Assembly: GCA_040954595.2 (NCBI GenBank)
Contig: CM082581.2
Span: forward strand, 8,229,313-8,293,312
Origin: Balanoglossus misakiensis
Lineage: Eukaryota > Animalia > Hemichordata
DNA length: 64,000 nt
Direction: 5' to 3'
The position numbers and the translations under genes were made by a program. Positions 4,868 to 64,000 of the stretch are shown here, piece after piece. Below the pieces are notes generated by a model. That model did no database searches. It saw nothing but the letters and a program-made list of their open reading frames with translations, and had not been told where the DNA came from. Position 1 is the first letter of the stretch. Each line of letters opens with the position of its first letter.

Positions 4868-5147
4868 ATGTCGACGGAGAAAGAAGAGATGGGCTCGCCA
4901 AAGTCGAACAAATTCTCCATACAGAGCATACTGAGCACAGACAGCAGCAAACAGAGGAATGCGGACAGTAATTCGGACGGGCGACCGTCCTCTGTGGAAG
5001 ACTCCACAACAAACAAGGCGGAACGAAGCGATCTCTTGTCGTACACGTCGGTCGCACAGCACTTTGTCAGCGACAGCGCGGTCGCCCGGCCGAACCCCTG
5101 GTACCCGTGGATAGCCGCAAACCCATATCTTCATTACGCATTTGAAC
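4868..5147 (+). CDS. Hmx: Hmx (NK5) homeobox transcription factor, coding exon 1
   Basis: ATG at 4868 in context AAGATGT; eh1 Groucho-binding motif FSIQSIL (4913-4933); WYPW motif (5099-5110); ends at a GTAAGT donor at 5148 in phase 1 (280 nt). Confidence 0.9.
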
Positions 5148-6406
<1,259 letters not shown>

Positions 6407-44400: not shown

Positions 44401-46493
44401 GTACTCTGTAAGGATACACTGACTTGACGAAGCAACTTTCTTGACAAGAAAGAGAAACAGGTAGCTGGATACTAAATTCAGACTGAGACAGATAGATAAA
44501 AAAGACGGACAACTTGCCCAGTCGTTTTTTTTATGCGGGATGGGTATGCTGCCCACGCATATGGTTCATATTCTAGAACATGCATGTACACAAACAGTTT
44601 GCATTAAGCCGAGATAAACACGCTTACGGGGTATATAATTTAGCTTTTATAGTGCGCCAAGGAATTAGGTCTTCTGGCAAGACTGGTTATGATATTATTA
44701 AGTAGTATGGAAGTCAATGGAATAAGATCAACCGAAGATTACAGACTGGGCAATAGGCCGAGTTCTTTTTCCTTGTAAGGTTTTATCCCGAACGCTAAAG
44801 GGAGAGTATGAATTTGCTGCGGTATAATGTAAGAAAAACACACAATCATTTCAAATTGATTGCTCTTGAGAGAGGGGGATACTGAATGTACTCCGGGGTG
44901 CGTTTTGCTCCTATTCGGAGTCGATTTTGGCGGCATTTTACATATTACGAATTACAGACGAACGAATTCCTCAATGAGAGAAAATTAAAGGCACCGAAAT
45001 GGACAACAAATCGGCTTTGGACAATGCAGGCCGACGTTTCTTTGGCTGCGCATTGTGCAAGATTTGATGGTGCACCCTCTTCGCTCGAGGCGCTTAATTA
45101 CGCTGAAACGCCATGCGACAAGATGTTGTGCTGTATATACCCACTGCCACTGAATGCGATTGATTAAAAAAAGATGCACAATGGCAGCATGCGGTATATA
45201 TAGGCTGTTGTGAAATGTTTGGCGTGCAACTCCAGTCAGGCCATGCAGACCATTCTCGGTGCGATCGAGAAGTTGCGAAGACTTTCCGAAGAACCTGCGA
45301 GATTGTTTCTACTTTGACTTGACTTCGGTCACACGTGAACATGCATATGGACCGTGACTTTCCTTCGCATTACAAAATGATATATGCATATGATATTCTA
45401 CAGCACGTGGAGGCCAAGATATAGTTTAAATGATAAAGGAAAGCTACAGATTTTTATTTTAATGCATGTCTGCAGTCTCTCTCTCTCCCCCCTCTCTCAC
45501 TCACTCACTCACGCAACAGTTTTTACGCTGACCCCCTAATTTTTATTCTCAATTTTAAGAGAGAATAATCTAAAATTGCCTTGAGCAAATTATATAAAAA
45601 AGCACGTTTATGACTTTCGGGGCGAATGCTCTCTTAATTGTATTCAGATAAAAATTCCCATCAAATCCAGGATATACTCACTTGGATGTTGGTTGGTTCT
45701 GATATTGACGTCAGGCCAACAGTAGTGTCTGGTTGAAATGCGCGTTACGCAGACCATGGAACAAGTTGTGGTTTAGAGAACCGTTGGAGTGGAAGGCAGC
45801 GAGAATAAAACTAACACCGACTGAAGCCGTTATTTAAAACCAGTGTTAAGATCATCAGTTGTGCTATCTACGTACATAGTACATATGTTGTAGATCAACA
45901 ATCGTGTGGAAAAAAATAACAACCTGCAATCATTTTGTTTTCAAAGCGAAACCGGAATATCACCGACAGCGGGACAATCAAAGGCGAATTTTAAACAAAT
46001 AAAAAACTGACTCACAGAAAAACAATAAAATTACAGAAAGTGGTTATTACATTGCGCGGTATATAAAAGAATGTGGAGTTTTCTACCCGTCTGCCCTACT
46101 TTACGGATAACAATCTCGGTGTAAATTATATTACTGTTTTTTAACTCCCGTCTTCGAGCGTACACTGTAAAATCGCTCTGAACAGTTGGACGTCCCTTCA
46201 CTATCATTTGTGATGTACAGTTTGTCCCGAAGCGGAACAGAAATTTCTGTGATAGTCTCGCTTTAATTTGGAACAAGCTCATCGCAGGAAGTCGCCCGGG
46301 GCTACACTTTGAAAACCGAACAATCAATAGACAAATGGAACTCCAAAACATGAAATTGGAGGACAATTTTTATGCGGACCGGGAGAATTGTTAGATGTTC
46401 GGCGATTACAGTTCAGAAAATGGCTATCGGCTTTGGTGATAATGGCAGAAATATCTGCCCACCTGGTAACACACAATATTCACGTAAATGAAC

Positions 46494-46607
46494 ACACATA
46501 CACATACGCATCCATGCATCTATGCATTCATACATCCATACATCCATCCATCCATCCATACATACATACATACATACATACATACATACATACATACATA
46601 CATACAT

Positions 46608-46642
<35 letters not shown>
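46494..46642 (+). repeat. (CATC)/(CATA)n-(CA)n compound microsatellite abutting the satellite array
   Basis: Degenerate CATC/CATA units become pure (CATA)n at ~46557-46624, then (CA)n to 46642. Confidence 0.95.
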
Positions 46643-46643
<1 letters not shown>

Positions 46644-49600
46644 TTCATATTTTGACAAAAATCATGGGTTATAGCCCATGAAAATCATCCAAAAATGACA
46701 ATTTTTCGACTTTGCGAAATATCAAATTTTCTTCATATTTTGACAAAAATCATGGGTTATAGCCCATGAAAATCATCCAAAAATGACAATTTTTCGACTT
46801 TGCGAAATATCAAAATTTCTTCATATTTTGACTAAAATCATGGGTTATAGCCCATGAAAATCATCCAAAAATGACAATTTTTCGACTTTGCGAAATATCA
46901 AAATTTCTTCATATTTTGACAAAAATCATGGGTTATAGCCCATGAAAATCATCCAAAAATGACAATTTTTCGACTTTGCGAAATATCAAAATTTCTTCAT
47001 ATTTTGACAAAAATCATGGGTTATAGCCCATGAAAATCATCCAAAAATGACAATTTTTCGACTTTGCGAAATATCAAAAATTCTTCATATTTTGACAAAA
47101 ATCATGGGTTATAGCCCATGAAAATCATCCAAAAATGACAATTTTTCGACTTTGCGAAATATCAAAATTTCTTCATATTTTGACAAAAATCATGGGTTAT
47201 AGCCCATGAAAATCATCCAAAAATGACAATTTTTCGACTTTGCGAAATATCAAAATTTCTTCATATTTTGACAAAAATCATGGGTTATAGCCCATGAAAA
47301 TCATCCAAAAATGACAATTTTTCGACTTTGCGAAATATCAAAAATTCTTCATATTTTGACAAAAATCATGGGTTATAGCCCATGAAAATCATCCAAAAAT
47401 GACAATTTTTCGACTTTGCGAAATATCAAAAATTCTTCATATTTTGACAAAAATCATGGGTTATAGCCCATGAAAATCATCCAAAAATGACAATTTTTCG
47501 ACTTTGCGAAATATCAAAATTTCTTCATATTTTGACAAAAATCATGGGTTATAGCCCATGAAAATCATCCAAAAATGACAATTTTTCGACTTTGCGAAAT
47601 ATCAAAATTTCTTCATATTTTGACAAAAATCATGGGTTATAGCCCATGAAAATCATCCAAAAATGACAATTTTTCGACTTTGCGAAATATCAAAATTTCT
47701 TCATATTTTGACAAAAATCATGGGTTATAGCCCATGAAAATCATCCAAAAATGACAATTTTTCGACTTTGCGAAATATCAAAATTTCGTCATATTTTGAC
47801 AAAAATCATGGGTTATAGCCCATGAAAATCATCCAAAAATGACAATTTTTCGACTTTGCGAAATATCAAAATTTCGTCATATTTTGACAAAAATCATGGG
47901 TTATAGCCCATGAAAATCATCCAAAAATGACAATTTTTCGACTTTGCGAAATATCAAAATTTCGTCATATTTTGACAAAAATCATGGGTTATAGCCCATG
48001 AAAATCATCCAAAAATGAAAATTTTTCGACTTTGCGAAATATCAAAATTTCTTCATATTTTGACAAAAATCATGGGTTATAGCCCATGAAAATCATCCAA
48101 AAATGACAATTTTTCGACTTTGCGAAATATCAAAATTTCTTCATATTTTGACAAAAATCATGGGTTATAGCCCATGAAAATCATCCAAAAATGACAATTT
48201 TTCGACTTTGCGAAATATCAAAATTTCTTCATATTTTGACAAAAATCATGGGTTATAGCCCATGAAAATCATCCAAAAATGACAATTTTTCGACTTTGCG
48301 AAATATCAAAATTTCGTCATATTTTGACAAAAATCATGGGTTATAGCCCATGAAAATCATCCAAAAATGACAATTTTTCGACTTTGCGAAATATCAAAAT
48401 TTCGTCATATTTTGACAAAAATCATGGGTTATAGCCCATGAAAATCATCCAAAAATGACAATTTTTCGACTTTGCGAAATATCAAAATTTCGTCATATTT
48501 TGACAAAAATCATGGGTTATAGCCCATGAAAATCATCCAAAAATGACAATTTTTCGACTTTGCGAAATATCAAAATTTCGTCATATTTTGACAAAAATCA
48601 TGGGTTATAGCCCATGAAAATCATCCAAAAATGACAATTTTTCGACTTTGCGAAATATCAAAATTTCTTCATATTTTGACAAAAATCATGGGTTATAGCC
48701 CATGAAAATCATCCAAAAATGACAATTTTTCGACTTTGCGAAATATCAAAATTTCTTCATATTTTGACAAAAATCATGGGTTATAGCCCATGAAAATCAT
48801 CCAAAAATGACAATTTTTCGACTTTGCGAAATATCAAAATTTCTTCATATTTTGACAAAAATCATGGGTTATAGCCCATGAAAATCATCCAAAAATGACA
48901 ATTTTTCGACTTTGCGAAATATCAAAATTTCTCTATATATTTTGACAAAAATCATGGGTTATAGCCCATGAAAATCATCCAAAAATGACAATTTTTCGAC
49001 TTTGCGAAATATCAAAATTTCGTCATATTTTGACAAAAATCATGGGTTATAGCCCATGAAAATCATCCAAAAATGACAATTTTTCGACTTTGCGAAATAT
49101 CAAAATTTCGTCATATTTTGACAAAAATCATGGGTTATAGCCCATGAAAATCATCCAAAAATGACAATTTTTCGACTTTGCGAAATATCAAAATTTCATC
49201 ATATTTTGACAAAAATCATGGGTTATAGCCCATGAAAATCATCCAAAAATGAAAATTTTTCGACTTTGCGAAATATCAAAATTTCTTCATATTTTGACAA
49301 AAATCATGGGTTATAGCCCATGAAAATCATCCAAAATGACAATTTTTCGACTTTGCGAAATATCAAAATTTCGTCATATTTTGACAAAAATCATGGGTTA
49401 TAGCCCATGAAAATCATCCAAAAATGACAATTTTTCGACTTTGCGAAATATCAAAATTTCGTCATATTTTGACAAAAATCATGGGTTATAGCCCATGAAA
49501 ATCATCCAAAAATGACAATTTTTCGACTTTGCGAAATATCAAAATTTCGTCATATTTTGACAAAAATCATGGGTTATAGCCCATGAAAATCATCCAAAAA

Positions 49601-52600
49601 TGACAATTTTTCGACTTTGCGAAATATCAAAATTTCGTCATATTTTGACAAAAATCATGGGTTATAGCCCATGAAAATCATCCAAAAATGACAATTTTTC
49701 GACTTTGCGAAATATCAAAATTTCGTCATATTTTGACAAAAATCATGGGTTATAGCCCATGAAAATCATCCAAAAATGACAATTTTTCGACTTTGCGAAA
49801 TATCAAAATTTCGTCATATTTTGACAAAAATCATGGGTTATAGCCCATGAAAATCATCCAAAAATGACAATTTTTCGACTTTGCGAAATATCAAAATTTC
49901 GTCATATTTTGACAAAAATCATGGGTTATAGCCCATGAAAATCATCCAAAAATGACAATTTTTCGACTTTGCGAAATATCAAAATTTCGTCATATTTTGA
50001 CAAAAATCATGGGTTATAGCCCATGAAAATCATCCAAAAATGACAATTTTTCGACTTTGCGAAATATCAAAATTTCTTCATATTTTGACAAAAATCATGG
50101 GTTATAGCCCATGAAAATCATCCAAAAATGACAATTTTTCGACTTTGCGAAATATCAAAATTTCTTCATATTTTGACAAAAATCATGGGTTATAGCCCAT
50201 GAAAATCATCCAAAAATGACAATTTTTCGACTTTGCGAAATATCAAAATTTCTTCATATTTTGACAAAAATCATGGGTTATAGCCCATGAAAATCATCCA
50301 AAAATGACAATTTTTCGACTTTGCGAAATATCAAAATTTCTCTATATATTTTGACAAAAATCATGGGTTATAGCCCATGAAAATCATCCAAAAATGACAA
50401 TTTTTCGACTTTGCGAAATATCAAAATTTCTTCATATTTTGACAAAAATCATGGGTTATAGCCCATGAAAATCATCCAAAAATGACAATTTTTCGACTTT
50501 GCGAAATATCAAAATTTCTTCATATTTTGACAAAAATCATGGGTTATAGCCCATGAAAATCATCCAAAAATGACAATTTTTCGACTTTGCGAAATATCAA
50601 AATTTCTTCATATTTTGACAAAAATCATGGGTTATAGCCCATGAAAATCATCCAAAAATGACAATTTTTCGACTTTGCGAAATATCAAAATTTCTTCATA
50701 TTTTGACAAAAATCATGGGTTATAGCCCATGAAAATCATCCAAAAATGACAATTTTTCGACTTTGCGAAATATCAAAATTTCTTCATATTTTGACAAAAA
50801 TCATGGGTTATAGCCCATGAAAATCATCCAAAAATGACAATTTTTCGACTTTGCGAAATATCAAAATTTCTTCATATTTTGACAAAAATCATGGGTTATA
50901 GCCCATGAAAATCATCCAAAAATGACAATTTTTCGACTTTGCGAAATATCAAAATTTCTTCATATTTTGACAAAAATCATGGGTTATAGCCCATGAAAAT
51001 CATCCAAAAATGACAATTTTTCGACTTTGCGAAATATCAAAATTTCTCTATATATTTTGACAAAAATCATGGGTTATAGCCCATGAAAATCATCCAAAAA
51101 TGACAATTTTTCGACTTTGCGAAATATCAAAATTTCTTCATATTTTGACAAAAATCATGGGTTATAGCCCATGAAAATCATCCAAAAATGACAATTTTTC
51201 GACTTTGCGAAATATCAAAATTTCTTCATATTTTGACAAAAATCATGGGTTATAGCCCATGAAAATCATCCAAAAATGACAATTTTTCGACTTTGCGAAA
51301 TATCAAAATTTCTTCATATTTTGACAAAAATCATGGGTTATAGCCCATGAAAATCATCCAAAAATGACAATTTTTCGACTTTGCGAAATATCAAAATTTC
51401 TTCATATTTTGACAAAAATCATGGGTTATAGCCCATGAAAATCATCCAAAAATGACAATTTTTCGACTTTGCGAAATATCAAAATTTCTTCATATTTTGA
51501 CAAAAATCATGGGTTATAGCCCATGAAAATCATCCAAAAATGACAATTTTTCGACTTTGCGAAATATCAAAATTTCTTCATATTTTGACAAAAATCATGG
51601 GTTATAGCCCATGAAAATCATCCAAAAATGACAATTTTTCGACTTTGCGAAATATCAAAATTTCTTCATATTTTGACAAAAATCATGGGTTATAGCCCAT
51701 GAAAATCATCCAAAAATGACAATTTTTCGACTTTGCGAAATATCAAAATTTCTTCATATTTTGACAAAAATCATGGGTTATAGCCCATGAAAATCATCCA
51801 AAAATGACAATTTTTCGACTTTGCGAAATATCAAAATTTCTTCATATTTTGACAAAAATCATGGGTTATAGCCCATGAAAATCATCCAAAAATGACAATT
51901 TTTCGACTTTGCGAAATATCAAAATTTCTTCATATTTTGACAAAAATCATGGGTTATAGCCCATGAAAATCATCCAAAAATGACAATTTTTCGACTTTGC
52001 GAAATATCAAAATTTCTTCATATTTTGACAAAAATCATGGGTTATAGCCCATGAAAATCATCCAAAAATGACAATTTTTCGACTTTGCGAAATATCAAAA
52101 TTTCTTCATATTTTGACAAAAATCATGGGTTATAGCCCATGAAAATCATCCAAAAATGACAATTTTTCGACTTTGCGAAATATCAAAATTTCTTCATATT
52201 TTGACAAAAATCATGGGTTATAGCCCATGAAAATCATCCAAAAATGACAATTTTTCGACTTTGCGAAATATCAAAATTTCTTCATATTTTGACAAAAATC
52301 ATGGGTTATAGCCCATGAAAATCATCCAAAAATGACAATTTTTCGACTTTGCGAAATATCAAAATTTCTTCATATTTTGACAAAAATCATGGGTTATAGC
52401 CCATGAAAATCATCCAAAAATGACAATTTTTCGACTTTGCGAAATATCAAAATTTCTTCATATTTTGACAAAAATCATGGGTTATAGCCCATGAAAATCA
52501 TCCAAAAATGACAATTTTTCGACTTTGCGAAATATCAAAATTTCTTCATATTTTGACAAAAATCATGGGTTATAGCCCATGAAAATCATCCAAAAATGAC

Positions 52601-55600
52601 AATTTTTCGACTTTGCGAAATATCAAAATTTCTTCATATTTTGACAAAAATCATGGGTTATAGCCCATGAAAATCATCCAAAAATGACAATTTTTCGACT
52701 TTGCGAAATATCAAAATTTCTTCATATTTTGACAAAAATCATGGGTTATAGCCCATGAAAATCATCCAAAAATGACAATTTTTCGACTTTGCGAAATATC
52801 AAAATTTCTTCATATTTTGACAAAAATCATGGGTTATAGCCCATGAAAATCATCCAAAAATGACAATTTTTCGACTTTGCGAAATATCAAAATTTCTTCA
52901 TATTTTGACAAAAATCATGGGTTATAGCCCATGAAAATCATCCAAAAATGACAATTTTTCGACTTTGCGAAATATCAAAATTTCTTCATATTTTGACAAA
53001 AATCATGGGTTATAGCCCATGAAAATCATCCAAAAATGACAATTTTTCGACTTTGCGAAATATCAAAATTTCTTCATATTTTGACAAAAATCATGGGTTA
53101 TAGCCCATGAAAATCATCCAAAAATGACAATTTTTCGACTTTGCGAAATATCAAAATTTCTTCATATTTTGACAAAAATCATGGGTTATAGCCCATGAAA
53201 ATCATCCAAAAATGACAATTTTTCGACTTTGCGAAATATCAAAATTTCTTCATATTTTGACAAAAATCATGGGTTATAGCCCATGAAAATCATCCAAAAA
53301 TGACAATTTTTCGACTTTGCGAAATATCAAAATTTCTTCATATTTTGACAAAAATCATGGGTTATAGCCCATGAAAATCATCCAAAAATGACAATTTTTC
53401 GACTTTGCGAAATATCAAAATTTCTTCATATTTTGACAAAAATCATGGGTTATAGCCCATGAAAATCATCCAAAAATGACAATTTTTCGACTTTGCGAAA
53501 TATCAAAATTTCTTCATATTTTGACAAAAATCATGGGTTATAGCCCATGAAAATCATCCAAAAATGACAATTTTTCGACTTTGCGAAATATCAAAATTTC
53601 TTCATATTTTGACAAAAATCATGGGTTATAGCCCATGAAAATCATCCAAAAATGACAATTTTTCGACTTTGCGAAATATCAAAATTTCTTCATATTTTGA
53701 CAAAAATCATGGGTTATAGCCCATGAAAATCATCCAAAAATGACAATTTTTCGACTTTGCGAAATATCAAAATTTCTTCATATTTTGACAAAAATCATGG
53801 GTTATAGCCCATGAAAATCATCCAAAAATGACAATTTTTCGACTTTGCGAAATATCAAAATTTCTTCATATTTTGACAAAAATCATGGGTTATAGCCCAT
53901 GAAAATCATCCAAAAATGACAATTTTTCGACTTTGCGAAATATCAAAATTTCTTCATATTTTGACAAAAATCATGGGTTATAGCCCATGAAAATCATCCA
54001 AAAATGACAATTTTTCGACTTTGCGAAATATCAAAATTTCTTCATATTTTGACAAAAATCATGGGTTATAGCCCATGAAAATCATCCAAAAATGACAATT
54101 TTTCGACTTTGCGAAATATCAAAATTTCTTCATATTTTGACAAAAATCATGGGTTATAGCCCATGAAAATCATCCAAAAATGACAATTTTTCGACTTTGC
54201 GAAATATCAAAATTTCTTCATATTTTGACAAAAATCATGGGTTATAGCCCATGAAAATCATCCAAAAATGACAATTTTTCGACTTTGCGAAATATCAAAA
54301 TTTCTTCATATTTTGACAAAAATCATGGGTTATAGCCCATGAAAATCATCCAAAAATGACAATTTTTCGACTTTGCGAAATATCAAAATTTCTTCATATT
54401 TTGACAAAAATCATGGGTTATAGCCCATGAAAATCATCCAAAAATGACAATTTTTCGACTTTGCGAAATATCAAAATTTCTTCATATTTTGACAAAAATC
54501 ATGGGTTATAGCCCATGAAAATCATCCAAAAATGACAATTTTTCGACTTTGCGAAATATCAAAATTTCTTCATATTTTGACAAAAATCATGGGTTATAGC
54601 CCATGAAAATCATCCAAAAATGACAATTTTTCGACTTTGCGAAATATCAAAATTTCTTCATATTTTGACAAAAATCATGGGTTATAGCCCATGAAAATCA
54701 TCCAAAAATGACAATTTTTCGACTTTGCGAAATATCAAAATTTCTTCATATTTTGACAAAAATCATGGGTTATAGCCCATGAAAATCATCCAAAAATGAC
54801 AATTTTTCGACTTTGCGAAATATCAAAATTTCTTCATATTTTGACAAAAATCATGGGTTATAGCCCATGAAAATCATCCAAAAATGACAATTTTTCGACT
54901 TTGCGAAATATCAAAATTTCTTCATATTTTGACAAAAATCATGGGTTATAGCCCATGAAAATCATCCAAAAATGACAATTTTTCGACTTTGCGAAATATC
55001 AAAATTTCTTCATATTTTGACAAAAATCATGGGTTATAGCCCATGAAAATCATCCAAAAATGACAATTTTTCGACTTTGCGAAATATCAAAATTTCTTCA
55101 TATTTTGACAAAAATCATGGGTTATAGCCCATGAAAATCATCCAAAAATGACAATTTTTCGACTTTGCGAAATATCAAAATTTCTTCATATTTTGACAAA
55201 AATCATGGGTTATAGCCCATGAAAATCATCCAAAAATGACAATTTTTCGACTTTGCGAAATATCAAAATTTCTTCATATTTTGACAAAAATCATGGGTTA
55301 TAGCCCATGAAAATCATCCAAAAATGACAATTTTTCGACTTTGCGAAATATCAAAATTTCTTCATATTTTGACAAAAATCATGGGTTATAGCCCATGAAA
55401 ATCATCCAAAAATGACAATTTTTCGACTTTGCGAAATATCAAAATTTCTTCATATTTTGACAAAAATCATGGGTTATAGCCCATGAAAATCATCCAAAAA
55501 TGACAATTTTTCGACTTTGCGAAATATCAAAATTTCTTCATATTTTGACAAAAATCATGGGTTATAGCCCATGAAAATCATCCAAAAATGACAATTTTTC

Positions 55601-58600
55601 GACTTTGCGAAATATCAAAATTTCTTCATATTTTGACAAAAATCATGGGTTATAGCCCATGAAAATCATCCAAAAATGACAATTTTTCGACTTTGCGAAA
55701 TATCAAAATTTCTTCATATTTTGACAAAAATCATGGGTTATAGCCCATGAAAATCATCCAAAAATGACAATTTTTCGACTTTGCGAAATATCAAAATTTC
55801 TTCATATTTTGACAAAAATCATGGGTTATAGCCCATGAAAATCATCCAAAAATGACAATTTTTCGACTTTGCGAAATATCAAAATTTCTTCATATTTTGA
55901 CAAAAATCATGGGTTATAGCCCATGAAAATCATCCAAAAATGACAATTTTTCGACTTTGCGAAATATCAAAATTTCTTCATATTTTGACAAAAATCATGG
56001 GTTATAGCCCATGAAAATCATCCAAAAATGACAATTTTTCGACTTTGCGAAATATCAAAATTTCTTCATATTTTGACAAAAATCATGGGTTATAGCCCAT
56101 GAAAATCATCCAAAAATGACAATTTTTCGACTTTGCGAAATATCAAAATTTCTTCATATTTTGACAAAAATCATGGGTTATAGCCCATGAAAATCATCCA
56201 AAAATGACAATTTTTCGACTTTGCGAAATATCAAAATTTCTTCATATTTTGACAAAAATCATGGGTTATAGCCCATGAAAATCATCCAAAAATGACAATT
56301 TTTCGACTTTGCGAAATATCAAAATTTCTTCATATTTTGACAAAAATCATGGGTTATAGCCCATGAAAATCATCCAAAAATGACAATTTTTCGACTTTGC
56401 GAAATATCAAAATTTCTTCATATTTTGACAAAAATCATGGGTTATAGCCCATGAAAATCATCCAAAAATGACAATTTTTCGACTTTGCGAAATATCAAAA
56501 TTTCTTCATATTTTGACAAAAATCATGGGTTATAGCCCATGAAAATCATCCAAAAATGACAATTTTTCGACTTTGCGAAATATCAAAATTTCTTCATATT
56601 TTGACAAAAATCATGGGTTATAGCCCATGAAAATCATCCAAAAATGACAATTTTTCGACTTTGCGAAATATCAAAATTTCTTCATATTTTGACAAAAATC
56701 ATGGGTTATAGCCCATGAAAATCATCCAAAAATGACAATTTTTCGACTTTGCGAAATATCAAAATTTCTTCATATTTTGACAAAAATCATGGGTTATAGC
56801 CCATGAAAATCATCCAAAAATGACAATTTTTCGACTTTGCGAAATATCAAAATTTCTTCATATTTTGACAAAAATCATGGGTTATAGCCCATGAAAATCA
56901 TCCAAAAATGACAATTTTTCGACTTTGCGAAATATCAAAATTTCTTCATATTTTGACAAAAATCATGGGTTATAGCCCATGAAAATCATCCAAAAATGAC
57001 AATTTTTCGACTTTGCGAAATATCAAAATTTCTTCATATTTTGACAAAAATCATGGGTTATAGCCCATGAAAATCATCCAAAAATGACAATTTTTCGACT
57101 TTGCGAAATATCAAAATTTCTTCATATTTTGACAAAAATCATGGGTTATAGCCCATGAAAATCATCCAAAAATGACAATTTTTCGACTTTGCGAAATATC
57201 AAAATTTCTTCATATTTTGACAAAAATCATGGGTTATAGCCCATGAAAATCATCCAAAAATGACAATTTTTCGACTTTGCGAAATATCAAAATTTCTTCA
57301 TATTTTGACAAAAATCATGGGTTATAGCCCATGAAAATCATCCAAAAATGACAATTTTTCGACTTTGCGAAATATCAAAATTTCTTCATATTTTGACAAA
57401 AATCATGGGTTATAGCCCATGAAAATCATCCAAAAATGACAATTTTTCGACTTTGCGAAATATCAAAATTTCTTCATATTTTGACAAAAATCATGGGTTA
57501 TAGCCCATGAAAATCATCCAAAAATGACAATTTTTCGACTTTGCGAAATATCAAAATTTCTTCATATTTTGACAAAAATCATGGGTTATAGCCCATGAAA
57601 ATCATCCAAAAATGACAATTTTTCGACTTTGCGTAATATCAAAATTTCTTCATATTTTGACAAAATCATGGGTTATAGCCCATGAAAATCATCCAAAAAT
57701 GACAATTTTTCGACTTTGCGAAATATCAAAATTTCTTCATATTTTGACAAAAATCATGGGTTATAGCCCATGAAAATCATCCAAAAATGACAATTTTTCG
57801 ACTTTGCGAAATATCAAAATTTCTTCATATTTTGACAAAAATCATGGGTTATAGCCCATGAAAATCATCCAAAAATGACAATTTTTCGACTTTGCGAAAT
57901 ATCAAAATTTCTTCATATTTTGACAAAAATCATGGGTTATAGCCCATGAAAATCATCCAAAAATGACAATTTTTCGACTTTGCGAAATATCAAAATTTCT
58001 TCATATTTTGACAAAAATCATGGGTTATAGCCCATGAAAATCATCCAAAAATGACAATTTTTCGACTTTGCGAAATATCAAAATTTCTTCATATTTTGAC
58101 AAAAATCATGGGTTATAGCCCATGAAAATCATCCAAAAATGACAATTTTTCGACTTTGCGAAATATCAAAATTTCTTCATATTTTGACAAAAATCATGGG
58201 TTATAGCCCATGAAAATCATCCAAAAATGACAATTTTTCGACTTTGCGAAATATCAAAATTTCTTCATATTTTGACAAAAATCATGGGTTATAGCCCATG
58301 AAAATCATCCAAAAATGACAATTTTTCGACTTTGTGAAATATCAAAATTTCTTCATATTTTGACAAAAATCATGGGTTATAGCCCATGAAAATCATCCAA
58401 AAATGACAATTTTTCGACTTTGCGAAATATCAAAATTTCTTCATATTTTGACAAAAATCATGGGTTATAGCCCATGAAAATCATCCAAAAATGACAATTT
58501 TTCGACTTTGCGAAATATCAAAATTTCTTCATATTTTGACAAAAATCATGGGTTATAGCCCATGAAAATCATCCAAAAATGACAATTTTTCGACTTTGCG

Positions 58601-61600
58601 AAATATCAAAATTTCTTCATATTTTGACAAAAATCATGGGTTATAGCCCATGAAAATCATCCAAAAATGACAATTTTTCGACTTTGCGAAATATCAAAAT
58701 TTCTTCATATTTTGACAAAAATCATGGGTTATAGCCCATGAAAATCATCCAAAAATGACAATTTTTCGACTTTGCGAAATATCAAAATTTCTTCATATTT
58801 TGACAAAAATCATGGGTTATAGCCCATGAAAATCATCCAAAAATGACAATTTTTCGACTTTGCGAAATATCAAAATTTCTTCATATTTTGACAAAAATCA
58901 TGGGTTATAGCCCATGAAAATCATCCAAAAATGACAATTTTTCGACTTTGCGAAATATCAAAATTTCTTCATATTTTGACAAAAATCATGGGTTATAGCC
59001 CATGAAAATCATCCAAAAATGACAATTTTTCGACTTTGCGAAATATCAAAATTTCTTCATATTTTGACAAAAATCATGGGTTATAGCCCATGAAAATCAT
59101 CCAAAAATGACAATTTTTCGACTTTGCGAAATATCAAAATTTCTTCATATTTTGACAAAAATCATGGGTTATAGCCCATGAAAATCATCCAAAAATGACA
59201 ATTTTTCGACTTTGCGAAATATCAAAATTTCTTCATATTTTGACAAAAATCATGGGTTATAGCCCATGAAAATCATCCAAAAATGACAATTTTTCGACTT
59301 TGCGAAATATCAAAATTTCTTCATATTTTGACAAAAATCATGGGTTATAGCCCATGAAAATCATCCAAAAATGACAATTTTTCGACTTTGCGAAATATCA
59401 AAATTTCTTCATATTTTGACAAAAATCATGGGTTATAGCCCATGAAAATCATCCAAAAATGACAATTTTTCGACTTTGCGAAATATCAAAATTTCTTCAT
59501 ATTTTGACAAAAATCATGGGTTATAGCCCATGAAAATCATCCAAAAATGACAATTTTTCGACTTTGCGAAATATCAAAATTTCTTCATATTTTGACAAAA
59601 ATCATGGGTTATAGCCCATGAAAATCATCCAAAAATGACAATTTTTCGACTTTGCGAAATATCAAAATTTCTTCATATTTTGACAAAAATCATGGGTTAT
59701 AGCCCATGAAAATCATCCAAAAATGACAATTTTTCGACTTTGCGAAATATCAAAATTTCTTCATATTTTGACAAAAATCATGGGTTATAGCCCATGAAAA
59801 TCATCCAAAAATGACAATTTTTCGACTTTGCGAAATATCAAAATTTCTTCATATTTTGACAAAAATCATGGGTTATAGCCCATGAAAATCATCCAAAAAT
59901 GACAATTTTTCGACTTTGCGAAATATCAAAATTTCTTCATATTTTGACAAAAATCATGGGTTATAGCCCATGAAAATCATCCAAAAATGACAATTTTTCG
60001 ACTTTGCGAAATATCAAAATTTCTTCATATTTTGACAAAAATCATGGGTTATAGCCCATGAAAATCATCCAAAAATGACAATTTTTCGACTTTGCGAAAT
60101 ATCAAAATTTCTTCATATTTTGACAAAAATCATGGGTTATAGCCCATGAAAATCATCCAAAAATGACAATTTTTCGACTTTGCGAAATATCAAAATTTCT
60201 TCATATTTTGACAAAAATCATGGGTTATAGCCCATGAAAATCATCCAAAAATGACAATTTTTCGACTTTGCGAAATATCAAAATTTCTTCATATTTTGAC
60301 AAAAATCATGGGTTATAGCCCATGAAAATCATCCAAAAATGACAATTTTTCGACTTTGCGAAATATCAAAATTTCTTCATATTTTGACAAAAATCATGGG
60401 TTATAGCCCATGAAAATCATCCAAAAATGACAATTTTTCGACTTTGCGAAATATCAAAATTTCTTCATATTTTGACAAAAATCATGGGTTATAGCCCATG
60501 AAAATCATCCAAAAATGACAATTTTTCGACTTTGCGAAATATCAAAATTTCTTCATATTTTGACAAAAATCATGGGTTATAGCCCATGAAAATCATCCAA
60601 AAATGACAATTTTTTCGACTTTGCGAAATATCAAAATTTCTTCATATTTTGACAAAAATCATGGGTTATAGCCCATGAAAATCATCCAAAAATGACAATT
60701 TTTCGACTTTGCGAAATATCAAAATTTCTTCATATTTTGACAAAAATCATGGGTTATAGCCCATGAAAATCATCCCAAAAATGACAATTTTTCGACTTTG
60801 CGAAATATCAAAATTTCTTCATATTTTGACAAAAATCATGGGTTATAGCCCATGAAAATCATCCAAAAATGACAATTTTTCGACTTTGCGAAATATCAAA
60901 ATTTCTTCATATTTTGACAAAAATCATGGGTTATAGCCCATGAAAATCATCCAAAAATGACAATTTTTCGACTTTGCGAAATATCAAAATTTCTTCATAT
61001 TTTGACAAAAATCATGGGTTATAGCCCATGAAAATCATCCAAAAATGACAATTTTTCGACTTTGCGAAATATCAAAATTTCTTCATATTTTGACAAAAAT
61101 CATGGGTTATAGCCCATGAAAATCATCCAAAAATGACAATTTTTCGACTTTGCGAAATATCAAAATTTCTTCATATTTTGACAAAAATCATGGGTTATAG
61201 CCCATGAAAATCATCCAAAAATGACAATTTTTCGACTTTGCGAAATATCAAAATTTCTTCATATTTTGACAAAAATCATGGGTTATAGCCCATGAAAATC
61301 ATCCAAAAATGACAATTTTTCGACTTTGCGAAATATCAAAATTTCTTCATATTTTGACAAAAATCATGGGTTATAGCCCATGAAAATCATCCAAAAATGA
61401 CAATTTTTCGACTTTGCGAAATATCAAAATTTCTTCATATTTTGACAAAAATCATGGGTTATAGCCCATGAAAATCATCCAAAAATGACAATTTTTCGAC
61501 TTTGCGAAATATCAAAATTTCTTCATATTTTGACAAAAATCATGGGTTATAGCCCATGAAAATCATCCAAAAATGACAATTTTTCGACTTTGCGAAATAT

Positions 61601-64000
61601 CAAAATTTCTTCATATTTTGACAAAAATCATGGGTTATAGCCCATGAAAATCATCCAAAAATGACAATTTTTCGACTTTGCGAAATATCAAAATTTCTTC
61701 ATATTTTGACAAAAATCATGGGTTATAGCCCATGAAAATCATCCAAAAATGACAATTTTTCGACTTTGCGAAATATCAAAATTTCTTCATATTTTGACAA
61801 AAATCATGGGTTATAGCCCATGAAAATCATCCAAAAATGACAATTTTTCGACTTTGCGAAATATCAAAATTTCTTCATATTTTGACAAAAATCATGGGTT
61901 ATAGCCCATGAAAATCATCCAAAAATGACAATTTTTCGACTTTGCGAAATATCAAAATTTCTTCATATTTTGACAAAAATCATGGGTTATAGCCCATGAA
62001 AATCATCCAAAAATGACAATTTTTCGACTTTGCGAAATATCAAAATTTCTTCATATTTTGACAAAAATCATGGGTTATAGCCCATGAAAATCATCCAAAA
62101 ATGACAATTTTTCGACTTTGCGAAATATCAAAATTTCTTCATATTTTGACAAAAATCATGGGTTATAGCCCATGAAAATCATCCAAAAATGACAATTTTT
62201 CGACTTTGCGAAATATCAAAATTTCTTCATATTTTGACAAAAATCATGGGTTATAGCCCATGAAAATCATCCAAAAATGACAATTTTTCGACTTTGCGAA
62301 ATATCAAAATTTCTTCATATTTTGACAAAAATCATGGGTTATAGCCCATGAAAATCATCCAAAAATGACAATTTTTCGACTTTGCGAAATATCAAAATTT
62401 CTTCATATTTTGACAAAAATCATGGGTTATAGCCCATGAAAATCATCCAAAAATGACAATTTTTCGACTTTGCGAAATATCAAAATTTCTTCATATTTTG
62501 ACAAAAATCATGGGTTATAGCCCATGAAAATCATCCAAAAATGACAATTTTTCGACTTTGCGAAATATCAAAATTTCTTCATATTTTGACAAAAATCATG
62601 GGTTATAGCCCATGAAAATCATCCAAAAATGACAATTTTTCGACTTTGCGAAATATCAAAATTTCTTCATATTTTGACAAAAATCATGGGTTATAGCCCA
62701 TGAAAATCATCCAAAAATGACAATTTTTCGACTTTGCGAAATATCAAAATTTCTTCATATTTTGACAAAAATCATGGGTTATAGCCCATGAAAATCATCC
62801 AAAAATGACAATTTTTCGACTTTGCGAAATATCAAAATTTCTTCATATTTTGACAAAAATCATGGGTTATAGCCCATGAAAATCATCCAAAAATGACAAT
62901 TTTTCGACTTTGCGAAATATCAAAATTTCTTCATATTTTGACAAAAATCATGGGTTATAGCCCATGAAAATCATCCAAAAATGACAATTTTTCGACTTTG
63001 CGAAATATCAAAATTTCTTCATATTTTGACAAAAATCATGGGTTATAGCCCATGAAAATCATCCAAAAATGACAATTTTTCGACTTTGCGAAATATCAAA
63101 ATTTCTTCATATTTTGACAAAAATCATGGGTTATAGCCCATGAAAATCATCCAAAAATGACAATTTTTCGACTTTGCGAAATATCAAAATTTCTTCATAT
63201 TTTGACAAAAATCATGGGTTATAGCCCATGAAAATCATCCAAAAATGACAATTTTTCGACTTTGCGAAATATCAAAATTTCTTCATATTTTGACAAAAAT
63301 CATGGGTTATAGCCCATGAAAATCATCCAAAAATGACAATTTTTCGACTTTGCGAAATATCAAAATTTCTTCATATTTTGACAAAAATCATGGGTTATAG
63401 CCCATGAAAATCATCCAAAAATGACAATTTTTCGACTTTGCGAAATATCAAAATTTCTTCATATTTTGACAAAAATCATGGGTTATAGCCCATGAAAATC
63501 ATCCAAAAATGACAATTTTTCGACTTTGCGAAATATCAAAATTTCTTCATATTTTGACAAAAATCATGGGTTATAGCCCATGAAAATCATCCAAAAATGA
63601 CAATTTTTCGACTTTGCGAAATATCAAAATTTCTTCATATTTTGACAAAATCATGGGTTATAGCCCATGAAAATCATCCAAAAATGACAATTTTTCGACT
63701 TTGCGAAATATCAAAATTTCTTCATATTTTGACAAAAATCATGGGTTATAGCCCATGAAAATCATCCAAAAATGACAATTTTTCGACTTTGCGAAATATC
63801 AAAATTTCTTCATATTTTGCTCTCACAAATGTAATCATGGGTTATAGCCCATGAAAATCATCCAAAAATGACAATTTTCGACTTTGCGAAATATCAAAAT
63901 TTCTTCATATTTTGACAAAAATCATGGGTTATAGCCCATGAAAATCATCCAAAAATGACAATTTTCGACTTTGCGAAATATCAAAATTTCTTCATATTTT
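46643..64000. repeat. 88-bp satellite DNA array, ~197 head-to-tail copies, running off the window end
   Basis: Consensus CTTCATATTTTGACAAAAATCATGGGTTATAGCCCATGAAAATCATCCAAAAATGACAATTTTTCGACTTTGCGAAATATCAAAATTT (88 bp, 25 G+C, ~28% GC). Copies start at 46643, 46731, 46819 and so on; most copies are identical. Confidence 0.99.

What the first reader, a model, noticed from the sequence alone, without database searches (positions are those of the whole stretch)
46643..64000. 88-bp satellite whose monomer resembles palindrome-bearing repeats of distantly related marine animals (possible cross-phylum repeat system)
Seen: the monomer reads TTTTGACAAAAATCATGGGTTATAGCCCATG...AAAAATGACAATTTTTCGACTTT, pseudo-translating as FDKNHGL*P...K*QFFDF. 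From memory, unverified: abundant stony-coral tandem repeats read roughly TTTTGACCAAAACCATGGRYTAACCCCTTTGGAAAAATSYCAATTTTTCGACTTT (giving spurious 'FDQNHGLTPLEK.QFFDF' predicted proteins), and repeats with an AAAACCATGGRCTATAGYCCATGG palindrome occur in other marine invertebrates. Satellites normally turn over within genera. Two ordered shared motifs across phyla would imply a constrained protein-binding or structural element, or spread by an unrecognised mobile element or virus. That interpretation is inference.
Basis: partly seen in the sequence, partly recalled or inferred. Interest (0 to 1): 0.8.

Follow-up and report, generated by a model that had tools for sequence, protein, structure and literature searches.

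The report
Acorn-worm satellite with shared palindrome core
An acorn-worm chromosome carries a long 88-base tandem repeat whose 37-base palindromic core recurs almost unchanged in an otherwise different repeat of six other, unnamed organisms and more loosely in a likely coral repeat, probably because these repeats grew from a binding-site module of an old jumping element; sharing across animal phyla is plausible but not shown.

Summary
The satellite is real: 197 copies of an 88-bp unit, 99% alike, 40 kb from an acorn-worm Hmx gene. Six other organisms (names withheld, six studies) carry a different high-copy repeat that shares only a 37-bp core with it, with sharp edges. Its spacer is unrelated in sequence, yet overlapping flank consensuses imply the same 88-bp period (read by eye). 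Their clade is unknown, so this could be within-phylum. A 166-bp repeat of probable coral origin (L039) keeps the predicted boxes in order (20/22 outside the searched pattern). But the whole alignment (57/88) is not significant if picked from thousands of families; a bacterial stretch scores higher, and a prokaryotic terminator matches 25/26 core bases. No virus hit, transposase or element end was found. Best reading (0.4): a satellite amplified from a transposon's subterminal repeat, the core being a binding site. Rivals: clade-level inheritance plus look-alikes (0.25), host-protein constraint (0.2), Helentron central repeat (0.15). The scan had not noted this sequence elsewhere; one unchecked note describes 87-bp opposed arrays 5.3 Mb away.

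The parts
46643..64000 (+). 88-bp tandem satellite array, 197 copies, one orientation throughout, open at the window end
   Evidence: 193 plus-strand and 0 minus-strand exact 21-bp cores
46652..46688 (+). 37-bp core of the first monomer (TTGAC, A-tract, dyad, AAAATCAT): the only part shared with the repeat family of organisms C, D, E, F, H, J
   Evidence: depth confined to the equivalent stretch 50610-50655 in four runs, no other letter in 10% or more of contigs; same limits in two more runs
46662..46681 (.). dyad of the first monomer: 7-bp perfect arms TCATGGG / CCCATGA around TTATAG
   Evidence: sequence
46681..46690 (+). about 10 extra bases between dyad and second box, absent from the coral-type repeat
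   Evidence: alignments
46691..46713 (+). second box (A-tract, GACAATTTTTCGACTTT); its first 15 bases match L039 at 13 of 15; not shared with organisms C-J
46689..46739 (+). 51-bp spacer between cores; unrelated in sequence to the spacer of organisms C-J but apparently of the same length
   Evidence: by-eye reading of loose-end consensuses (inferred)
46508..46642 (+). compound (CATC)n(CATA)n(CA)n microsatellite that the array abuts directly; similar tracts lie elsewhere in the window without the satellite
46444..46459 (.). small 6-bp-arm hairpin left of the microsatellite; tested as a Helentron-type left end and not met
   Evidence: only 1 contig of run X1 covers this flank
4868..6406 (+). Hmx (NK5) homeobox gene, two exons; places the window in an acorn worm (context, not part of the repeat)
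   Evidence: 87% to Ptychodera flava, 81% Glandiceps, 77% Saccoglossus; exon 1 77% to P. flava

Best explanation
The array is a recently homogenised 88-bp satellite of an acorn worm whose monomer likely descends from the subterminal tandem repeat of an old, widespread cut-and-paste (foldback-type) DNA transposon, in which the 37-bp dyad core would be a repeated transposase-binding site. Shown: the array, its homogeneity and edge variation, and the core-only sharing with another high-copy repeat family. Inferred: (1) related elements in other hosts kept the binding site and its spacing while the spacer drifted, giving the same core and apparently the same 88-bp period with an unrelated spacer; (2) in this acorn worm one such unit escaped the element and was amplified by unequal exchange or rolling-circle amplification into long free arrays; (3) the 166-bp coral-type repeat is a more distant offshoot of the same module. 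No host function is needed.
For: Sharing is limited to a sharply bounded 37-40 bp core in 6 of the 6 core-only runs laid (X4, X8, X11, X15, X17, X20). Tetris of Drosophila virilis shows the same pattern: a 37-bp stretch shared between its outer end and its 220-bp internal repeat, which grew into satellite arrays (PMC4079207, passages). Rehavkus subterminal repeats expanded to 80.5-kb arrays in one Tribolium species while staying short in its sibling (PMC12581902, passages). Muta1 ends carry 12-bp repeats with 3-4 bp spacers (PMC5225508, passages). In organisms C, E and J the core sits in 1-2 kb contigs at depth 5-10 and recurs in tandem (tables 5 and 8), as old short arrays would. Run X1 holds one opposite-strand joint between monomers and joints into degenerate units. 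Edge monomers vary more than inner ones, 26 of 40 against 9 of 156. Lead only, unchecked: note e1-10617120 on two opposed 87-bp arrays 5.3 Mb further along the same piece.
Against: No part of an element was found. The array abuts a host microsatellite with no outer terminal domain, the flank is covered by one contig only in X1, there is no orientation switch in 17 kb, and 0 of 50 frames scanned (of 61 listed) match a transposase. String searches of published element sets found no copy of the dyad core: Mutator, KolobokP, Merlin (only scattered 9-10-base matches). The published Tm1 motifs differ (PMC3169594, passages). The coral-type copy has lost the dyad (fold -0.8 kcal/mol) and is one base shorter in the centre. 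Its overall match is weak. The core is not invariant: C-to-T variants at two core positions were common in some bins of X4 and X8. I did not see the 87-bp repeat's sequence.
Confidence: 0.4

Rival explanations
1. Ordinary inheritance plus look-alikes: organisms C-J are fairly close relatives (other acorn worms or their sister group) that inherited the repeat from a shared library, and the coral-type, L012 and L006/L011 matches are convergent AT-rich hairpins picked out of a large space.
For: Names of C-J are withheld. Window against L039 unit: 57 of 88 columns, P 2.7e-4 per family, expected 2.7 times among 10,000 families; bacterial L041 scores 69 against 65. BLAST with the dimer did not report the L039 contig at E 0.1. 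A terminator-like hairpin after an nrdD gene matches 25 of 26 core bases (L004). 23 of 32 distinct pattern hits lie in long open frames. QFFDF tail absent from 176 pseudo-proteins.
Against: L039 matches 20 of 22 bases outside the searched pattern, next best of 41 matches 14; null P at most 4.4e-5 per site. Upstream and downstream parts each beat shuffles (P 0.014 and 0.004). Plain drift does not explain a core near 100% beside a spacer at 13 of 51 ungapped (by eye). Eight organisms in seven studies since 2016 is many for a rarely sequenced phylum (judgement, not tested).
Confidence: 0.25
2. Host constraint: the dyad core is the site of a conserved host DNA-binding protein, or a favoured cruciform, and the 88-bp period (176 bp per dimer) suits nucleosome spacing. 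Repeats carrying it would be repeatedly favoured as centromeric or heterochromatic satellites, as with the CENP-B box.
For: Same core and apparently the same period with an unrelated spacer (by eye). Very high abundance in run X1: summed depth of millions on the array against 260 on the flank (the tool warns this is no copy number). A perfect 36-bp version lies in an rDNA spacer repeat (L006, L011). Dyads are proposed to matter in centromeric satellites (PMC12581902, passages).
Against: Dyad lost and spacing changed in the coral-type repeat. Hairpin and predicted curvature are not exceptional (184 of 1000 shuffles; P 0.30). This array begins 40 kb from a developmental gene. The core does not resemble the CENP-B box (recalled consensus, not tested by a call). 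No binding or localisation data.
Confidence: 0.2
3. The monomer derives from the central tandem repeat of a non-autonomous Helentron (HINE), the rolling-circle elements that carry satellite-like arrays in oysters and, by unchecked notes, occur in this genome.
For: The array follows a 4-base microsatellite, as HINE arrays do (PMC7492417, passages). By eye, oyster cluster CL8 has three short look-alike boxes in the same order; 12 places hold a 10-base piece of the window's dyad and 223 a 1-base-shorter form of the second box (supplement rows). Notes e1-10585930 and e1-10660877.
Against: No 11-12 bp subterminal repeat with a 7-12 bp partner left of the microsatellite. The flank is not a multi-copy family in X1 (1 contig). 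Such microsatellites are common in the window without the satellite. CL8 lacks the left arm of the dyad: 0 places for the two longer core strings in 3.35 million characters. The CL8 likeness came from strings I chose and has no statistic.
Confidence: 0.15

Closest known systems
Foldback-derived satellites: TIR-220 of Tetris (Drosophila virilis, PMC4079207) and TCsat12 of Rehavkus (Tribolium, PMC12581902); passages read
   Same: Tandem unit of about 100-200 bp amplified into multi-kb arrays; a short (37-bp) module shared between otherwise different repeats; arrays ending abruptly at simple repeats
   Different: There the parent element and opposed ends are known and sharing is within a genus; here no element end, duplication or transposase was found and carriers may be far apart
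BIV160 / Cg170 / pDTE satellite family of bivalves (PMC5139131, passages read)
   Same: Diverged monomers in different species keep short conserved motifs; linked to mobile elements
   Different: Two motifs in about 160-bp monomers, within one class; here one dyad core, 88-bp period, spacer with no visible similarity, possibly across phyla
Cg_HINE central repeats of the Pacific oyster, especially CL8 (PMC7492417, passages and supplement rows read)
   Same: Array next to a 4-base microsatellite; three short boxes that look alike by eye
   Different: HINE end modules not found here; CL8 has no dyad; HINE arrays are short, this one is over 17 kb
188-nt Porites satellite with a palindromic telomeric motif (PMC10236652, passages; Figure S11 is a picture and was not seen)
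   Same: Palindrome-bearing tandem repeat in a stony coral
   Different: 188 bp against 166 bp in L039; reported as Porites-only; identity with L039 could not be checked

Membership tests
Satellite DNA | Long head-to-tail array of a fixed monomer, homogenised | tested here: met
   197 copies, 99%, 161 of 196 identical
Satellite DNA | High copy number in the genome | tested here: met
   13,277 contigs of run X1 laid, summed depth over 10,000 times the flank's; not a copy number
Satellite DNA | Heterochromatic or centromeric location | not testable with these tools
   no genome held
Foldback-type Mutator elements (Rehavkus, Phantom/Tm1, Muta1) and Tetris | Tandem repeats in opposed orientation at two ends | tested here: inconclusive
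   193 plus, 0 minus in the window, but the array runs off its end; one opposite-strand joint in X1
Foldback-type Mutator elements (Rehavkus, Phantom/Tm1, Muta1) and Tetris | Distinct outer terminal domain at the array edge | tested here: not met
   array abuts the microsatellite directly
Foldback-type Mutator elements (Rehavkus, Phantom/Tm1, Muta1) and Tetris | 8-9 bp target-site duplication | not testable with these tools
   other end lies beyond the window
Foldback-type Mutator elements (Rehavkus, Phantom/Tm1, Muta1) and Tetris | Transposase gene in or beside the unit | tested here: not met
   0 of 50 frames scanned against Pfam (of 61 of 100 aa or more); left side only
HINE (non-autonomous Helentron) | Left module: 11-12 bp subterminal repeat plus 7-12 bp inverted partner | tested here: not met
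   only a 6-bp-arm hairpin at 46444-46459 and a spacer-less 7-bp one at 46237; flank covered by 1 contig
HINE (non-autonomous Helentron) | Short microsatellite before the central repeats | tested here: met
   46508-46642, but such tracts are common in the window
HINE (non-autonomous Helentron) | Right module: subterminal repeat plus palindrome | not testable with these tools
   beyond the window end
Viral repeat (origin or homologous-region type) | Occurrence in viral genomes | tested here: not met
   0 hits in 4 pattern scans of IMG/VR; 1 chance hit in 50,697 phages; animal DNA viruses are thinly covered there
Retrozyme or other structured-RNA tandem repeat | Match to a ribozyme or RNA family | tested here: not met
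   0 of 15 Rfam matches reach the gathering score; none is a hammerhead
BIV160 / Cg170 family | The two conserved motifs of that family | not tested
   motif sequences are in figures not held; only by-eye likeness of the left box to oyster rows

The most novel reading that the evidence does not exclude
A 37-bp dyad box at a fixed 88-bp period is a protein-binding module shared by satellites of several animal phyla, with looser forms in corals and in an rDNA spacer; everything between the boxes turns over. It would be an invertebrate counterpart of the CENP-B box, or the footprint of an undescribed and very widespread mobile element, and would give a handle on why some sequences repeatedly become satellites.
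Probability: 0.25. Interest if true: 0.8.

Novelty: new member of a known kind. Interest (0 to 1): 0.48.

Why it matters
Satellites usually turn over within genera, and the cases of long persistence that I read about are within one class (bivalves). A core kept nearly exact, at apparently the same period, while the spacer is replaced, isolates the part of a satellite that is under constraint. If the other carriers are outside Hemichordata, the question of whether elements or hosts keep such boxes becomes directly testable with one 37-bp probe. If they are close relatives it is an ordinary library case. Practical side: the coral-type repeat seeds hundreds of spurious proteins in public collections and contaminates a bacterial genome record (L039).

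Tried and rejected
No whole genome held. No RNA holder listed. The window's longest natural frame in the array (65 aa, from an 87-bp variant) found nothing: 0 of 5 candidates, 0 of 1.84 billion representatives; Atlas best 0.83, a Mollusca-labelled unnamed cluster, below the tool's 0.9 line and not used; Atlas with the L039 frame best 0.77. Viral scans 0; phages 1 chance hit. 176 genomes of L039's bacterial phylum: 40 with short chance-like hits at E 0.1, no further host repeat among those I looked at (L041, L048, L052); the rest of L039's own genome has no other copy. Rfam below thresholds. DNA curvature not above shuffles. Not-in-print searches: six motif strings, 0 papers; topic searches; supplements of PMC9587614, PMC10586311, PMC12070523, PMC6446971 no hit, PMC8101967 scattered short matches only, PMC10236652 12 of 17 files searched, motif 0. 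Repbase, Dfam and most subscription papers could not be searched, so the repeat may be catalogued there. The idea that the dyad centre is a tail-to-head junction of element ends (Academ or piggyBac type) stayed untested: the Academ paper is not held and the centre differs between families. Two searches for the host of L039's record found nothing. One paper id recalled wrongly gave an unrelated paper. Earlier-finding look-ups by sequence: nothing, one irrelevant phage note, nothing near, nothing by words.
Full report
Observation. Tandem Repeats Finder gives one array at 46643-64000, period 88, 197.1 copies, 99% matches. Of 196 complete monomers 186 are 88 bp and 161 are identical. Variants crowd the left edge, 26 of the first 40 against 9 of the other 156 (Fisher P 4e-15), as expected at a true array end. 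All copies face one way. The array starts directly after a (CATA)n(CA)n tract; similar tracts occur elsewhere in the window without it. No contig confirmed the junction itself, because the tool masked the microsatellite. The monomer's dyad has 7-bp perfect arms. That alone is unremarkable: 184 of 1000 shuffles do as well, and predicted curvature is not above shuffles.

Host. The only gene found is Hmx at 4868-6406, 87% identical to Ptychodera flava, 81% to Glandiceps and 77% to Saccoglossus, so the window is from an acorn worm. Of 61 frames of 100 aa or more I scanned 50 against Pfam: Hmx hit the homeodomain, one frame gave a sub-threshold membrane hit, none a transposase, Rep or recombinase.

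Sequencing runs. 24 runs of 10 coded organisms in 9 studies hold words of the array; I laid 8. Run X1 (organism A) covers the whole monomer with 13,277 contigs at summed depth in the millions against 260 on the flank, shows many variants, joints into degenerate units and one opposite-strand joint. It may be the window's own species and is not independent support. X3 (organism B) has a single low-depth contig. Six runs of six organisms in six studies (X4, X8, X11, X15, X17, X20; 365, 3550, 294, 2446, 62 and 309 contigs) cover only a 37-40 bp core. On a single-copy target, depth falls to zero outside 50606-50661 and no position differs in 10% or more of contigs. On the five-copy target at a 5% threshold, C-to-T variants at two core positions were common in some bins, so the core is conserved, not invariant. 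Beyond the core all six share one flank consensus unlike the window, at only about 0.6 agreement, and cores recur in tandem. Reading the 30-base consensuses by eye, the downstream one ends with the 9 bases that begin the upstream one, which gives a 51-base spacer and an 88-bp unit, the window's own period; the two spacers agree at 13 of 51 positions without gaps. This period is inferred, not measured, and shorter spacers of 13-39 bases also occur (table 5c). The runs were chosen for sharing words, so I estimated chance: 7e-5 to 3e-3 after discounting the mirrored arm, for 88 starts and an assumed 1e11 bases. The sharing is therefore real. How far these organisms lie from acorn worms is unknown.

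Coral-type repeat. A degenerate dyad pattern gave 19 metagenome and 20 genome loci, 32 distinct; 23 lie in long open frames and look like chance, and 3 lie in repeat units. L039, a 1050-bp contig in a Poribacteria genome record, is a 166-bp tandem repeat. Its isolate code suggests a Porites host (my recall; two paper searches found nothing). Its pseudo-translation finds 502 of 502 candidates; the best 120 and the 68 cluster members read are all unnamed, on contigs up to 3.06 Mb, so it is an abundant repeat of some large genome. Outside the searched pattern it matches 7 of 7 upstream and 13 of 15 downstream bases; the next best of 41 matches scores 14 of 22, and null P is at most 4.4e-5. Against homology: pattern and boxes were chosen from that recollection, so this test confirms the memory more than the kinship. 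The best copy aligns at 57 of 88 columns, P 2.7e-4 per family, expected 2.7 times among 10,000 families, and a bacterial stretch picked from 176 genomes scores higher (69 against 65). The dyad is lost in L039, about 10 bases are missing before the second box, and the QFFDF tail is in 0 of 176 pseudo-proteins. I put homology with the coral-type repeat near even odds.

Other hits. L006 and L011 hold a perfect 36-bp palindrome in the spacer behind a eukaryotic large-subunit rRNA gene, in a unit that recurs at 318 bp in L011; the rRNA looks nematode-like to me (recalled, untested). L012 holds the dyad in one of two copies of a 177-bp unit. These share little beyond the pattern. L004 is the control that limits them: a terminator-like hairpin after nrdD matches 25 of 26 core bases by convergence.

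Mechanism. Core kept, spacer replaced, period apparently kept: this is what repeated binding sites look like. The best-documented source of such units is the subterminal repeat of foldback-type transposons, which has seeded satellites in Drosophila (PMC4079207, passages) and Tribolium (PMC12581902, passages); Muta1 shows spaced repeats in its ends (PMC5225508, passages). I commit to that origin at 0.4. It works like these cases, but membership is not met here: no outer end, no transposase, no opposed array in the window. String searches of published Mutator, KolobokP and Merlin supplements found no core (main texts not read), and Tm1's motifs differ (PMC3169594, passages). The Helentron route has the adjacent microsatellite and a by-eye likeness to oyster cluster CL8 (PMC7492417, passages and supplement rows), but the left module is absent and the flank is single-contig: 0.15. 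Host constraint explains core and period equally well but has no direct support and is weakened by the lost dyad in L039: 0.2. Inheritance among close relatives plus look-alikes remains open while C-J are unnamed: 0.25. A viral carrier found no support.

Literature. No paper in the library prints any of six motif strings; topic searches gave no description of this repeat. Conserved motifs in diverged monomers are known for the BIV160/Cg170 family (PMC5139131, passages). A 188-nt palindromic Porites satellite is described (PMC10236652, passages) but its sequence is in a figure I could not see, and 5 of 17 supplement files were not searched, so L039 may or may not be that repeat. PMC9005458 (passages) did not bear on it; PMC10586311 and PMC12070523 were searched in supplements only; from PMC10799480 I saw one reference line. 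Repbase and Dfam were not available.

Verdict. A real satellite with a real, sharply bounded core shared beyond its species. The cross-phylum system is plausible but unproven, and the mechanism is inferred. New member of a known kind; interest 0.48, rising to about 0.8 if the other carriers prove to be in other phyla.

Noticed in passing
L006:1726-2205 and 2330-2690; L011: rDNA spacer of an unidentified eukaryote holds tandem 71-73 bp repeats that each copy a short stretch of the 28S gene (the conserved site at L006 540-565, recalled as the R2 / I-PpoI target), then a unit with a perfect 36-bp palindrome. The copies could act as decoy insertion sites (speculation).
   Followed up: partly
L039 (JAAXHD010000196.1): A 1050-bp contig of probable animal-host satellite DNA sits inside a Poribacteria genome record; it also carries blocks of a 10-bp G-rich subrepeat. 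The repeat yields hundreds of spurious predicted proteins.
   Followed up: partly
window 63560-64000: Three of the last four complete monomers are variants, one a 96-bp copy with foreign bases at about 63740-63835; the array may end or change subfamily soon after the window.
   Followed up: no
window 4868-6406: Hmx (NK5) gene; no other gene was detected in the 40 kb between it and the array.
   Followed up: partly
run X1 laid on window 46738-46999 (table 7): Monomers join into degenerate units whose start resembles, by eye, the left flank of the L006 palindrome at about 21 of 24 bases; may mark an inner or outer domain of a parent element.
   Followed up: no
L004:2498-2529: Hairpin with T-tail overlapping the stop of an nrdD gene and followed by a GIY-YIG nuclease gene; matches 25 of 26 bases of the satellite core by convergence.
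   Followed up: yes
L012:986-1278: 177-bp two-copy repeat with the dyad in only one copy, in animal-looking DNA of unknown host; 177 is close to twice 88.
   Followed up: partly
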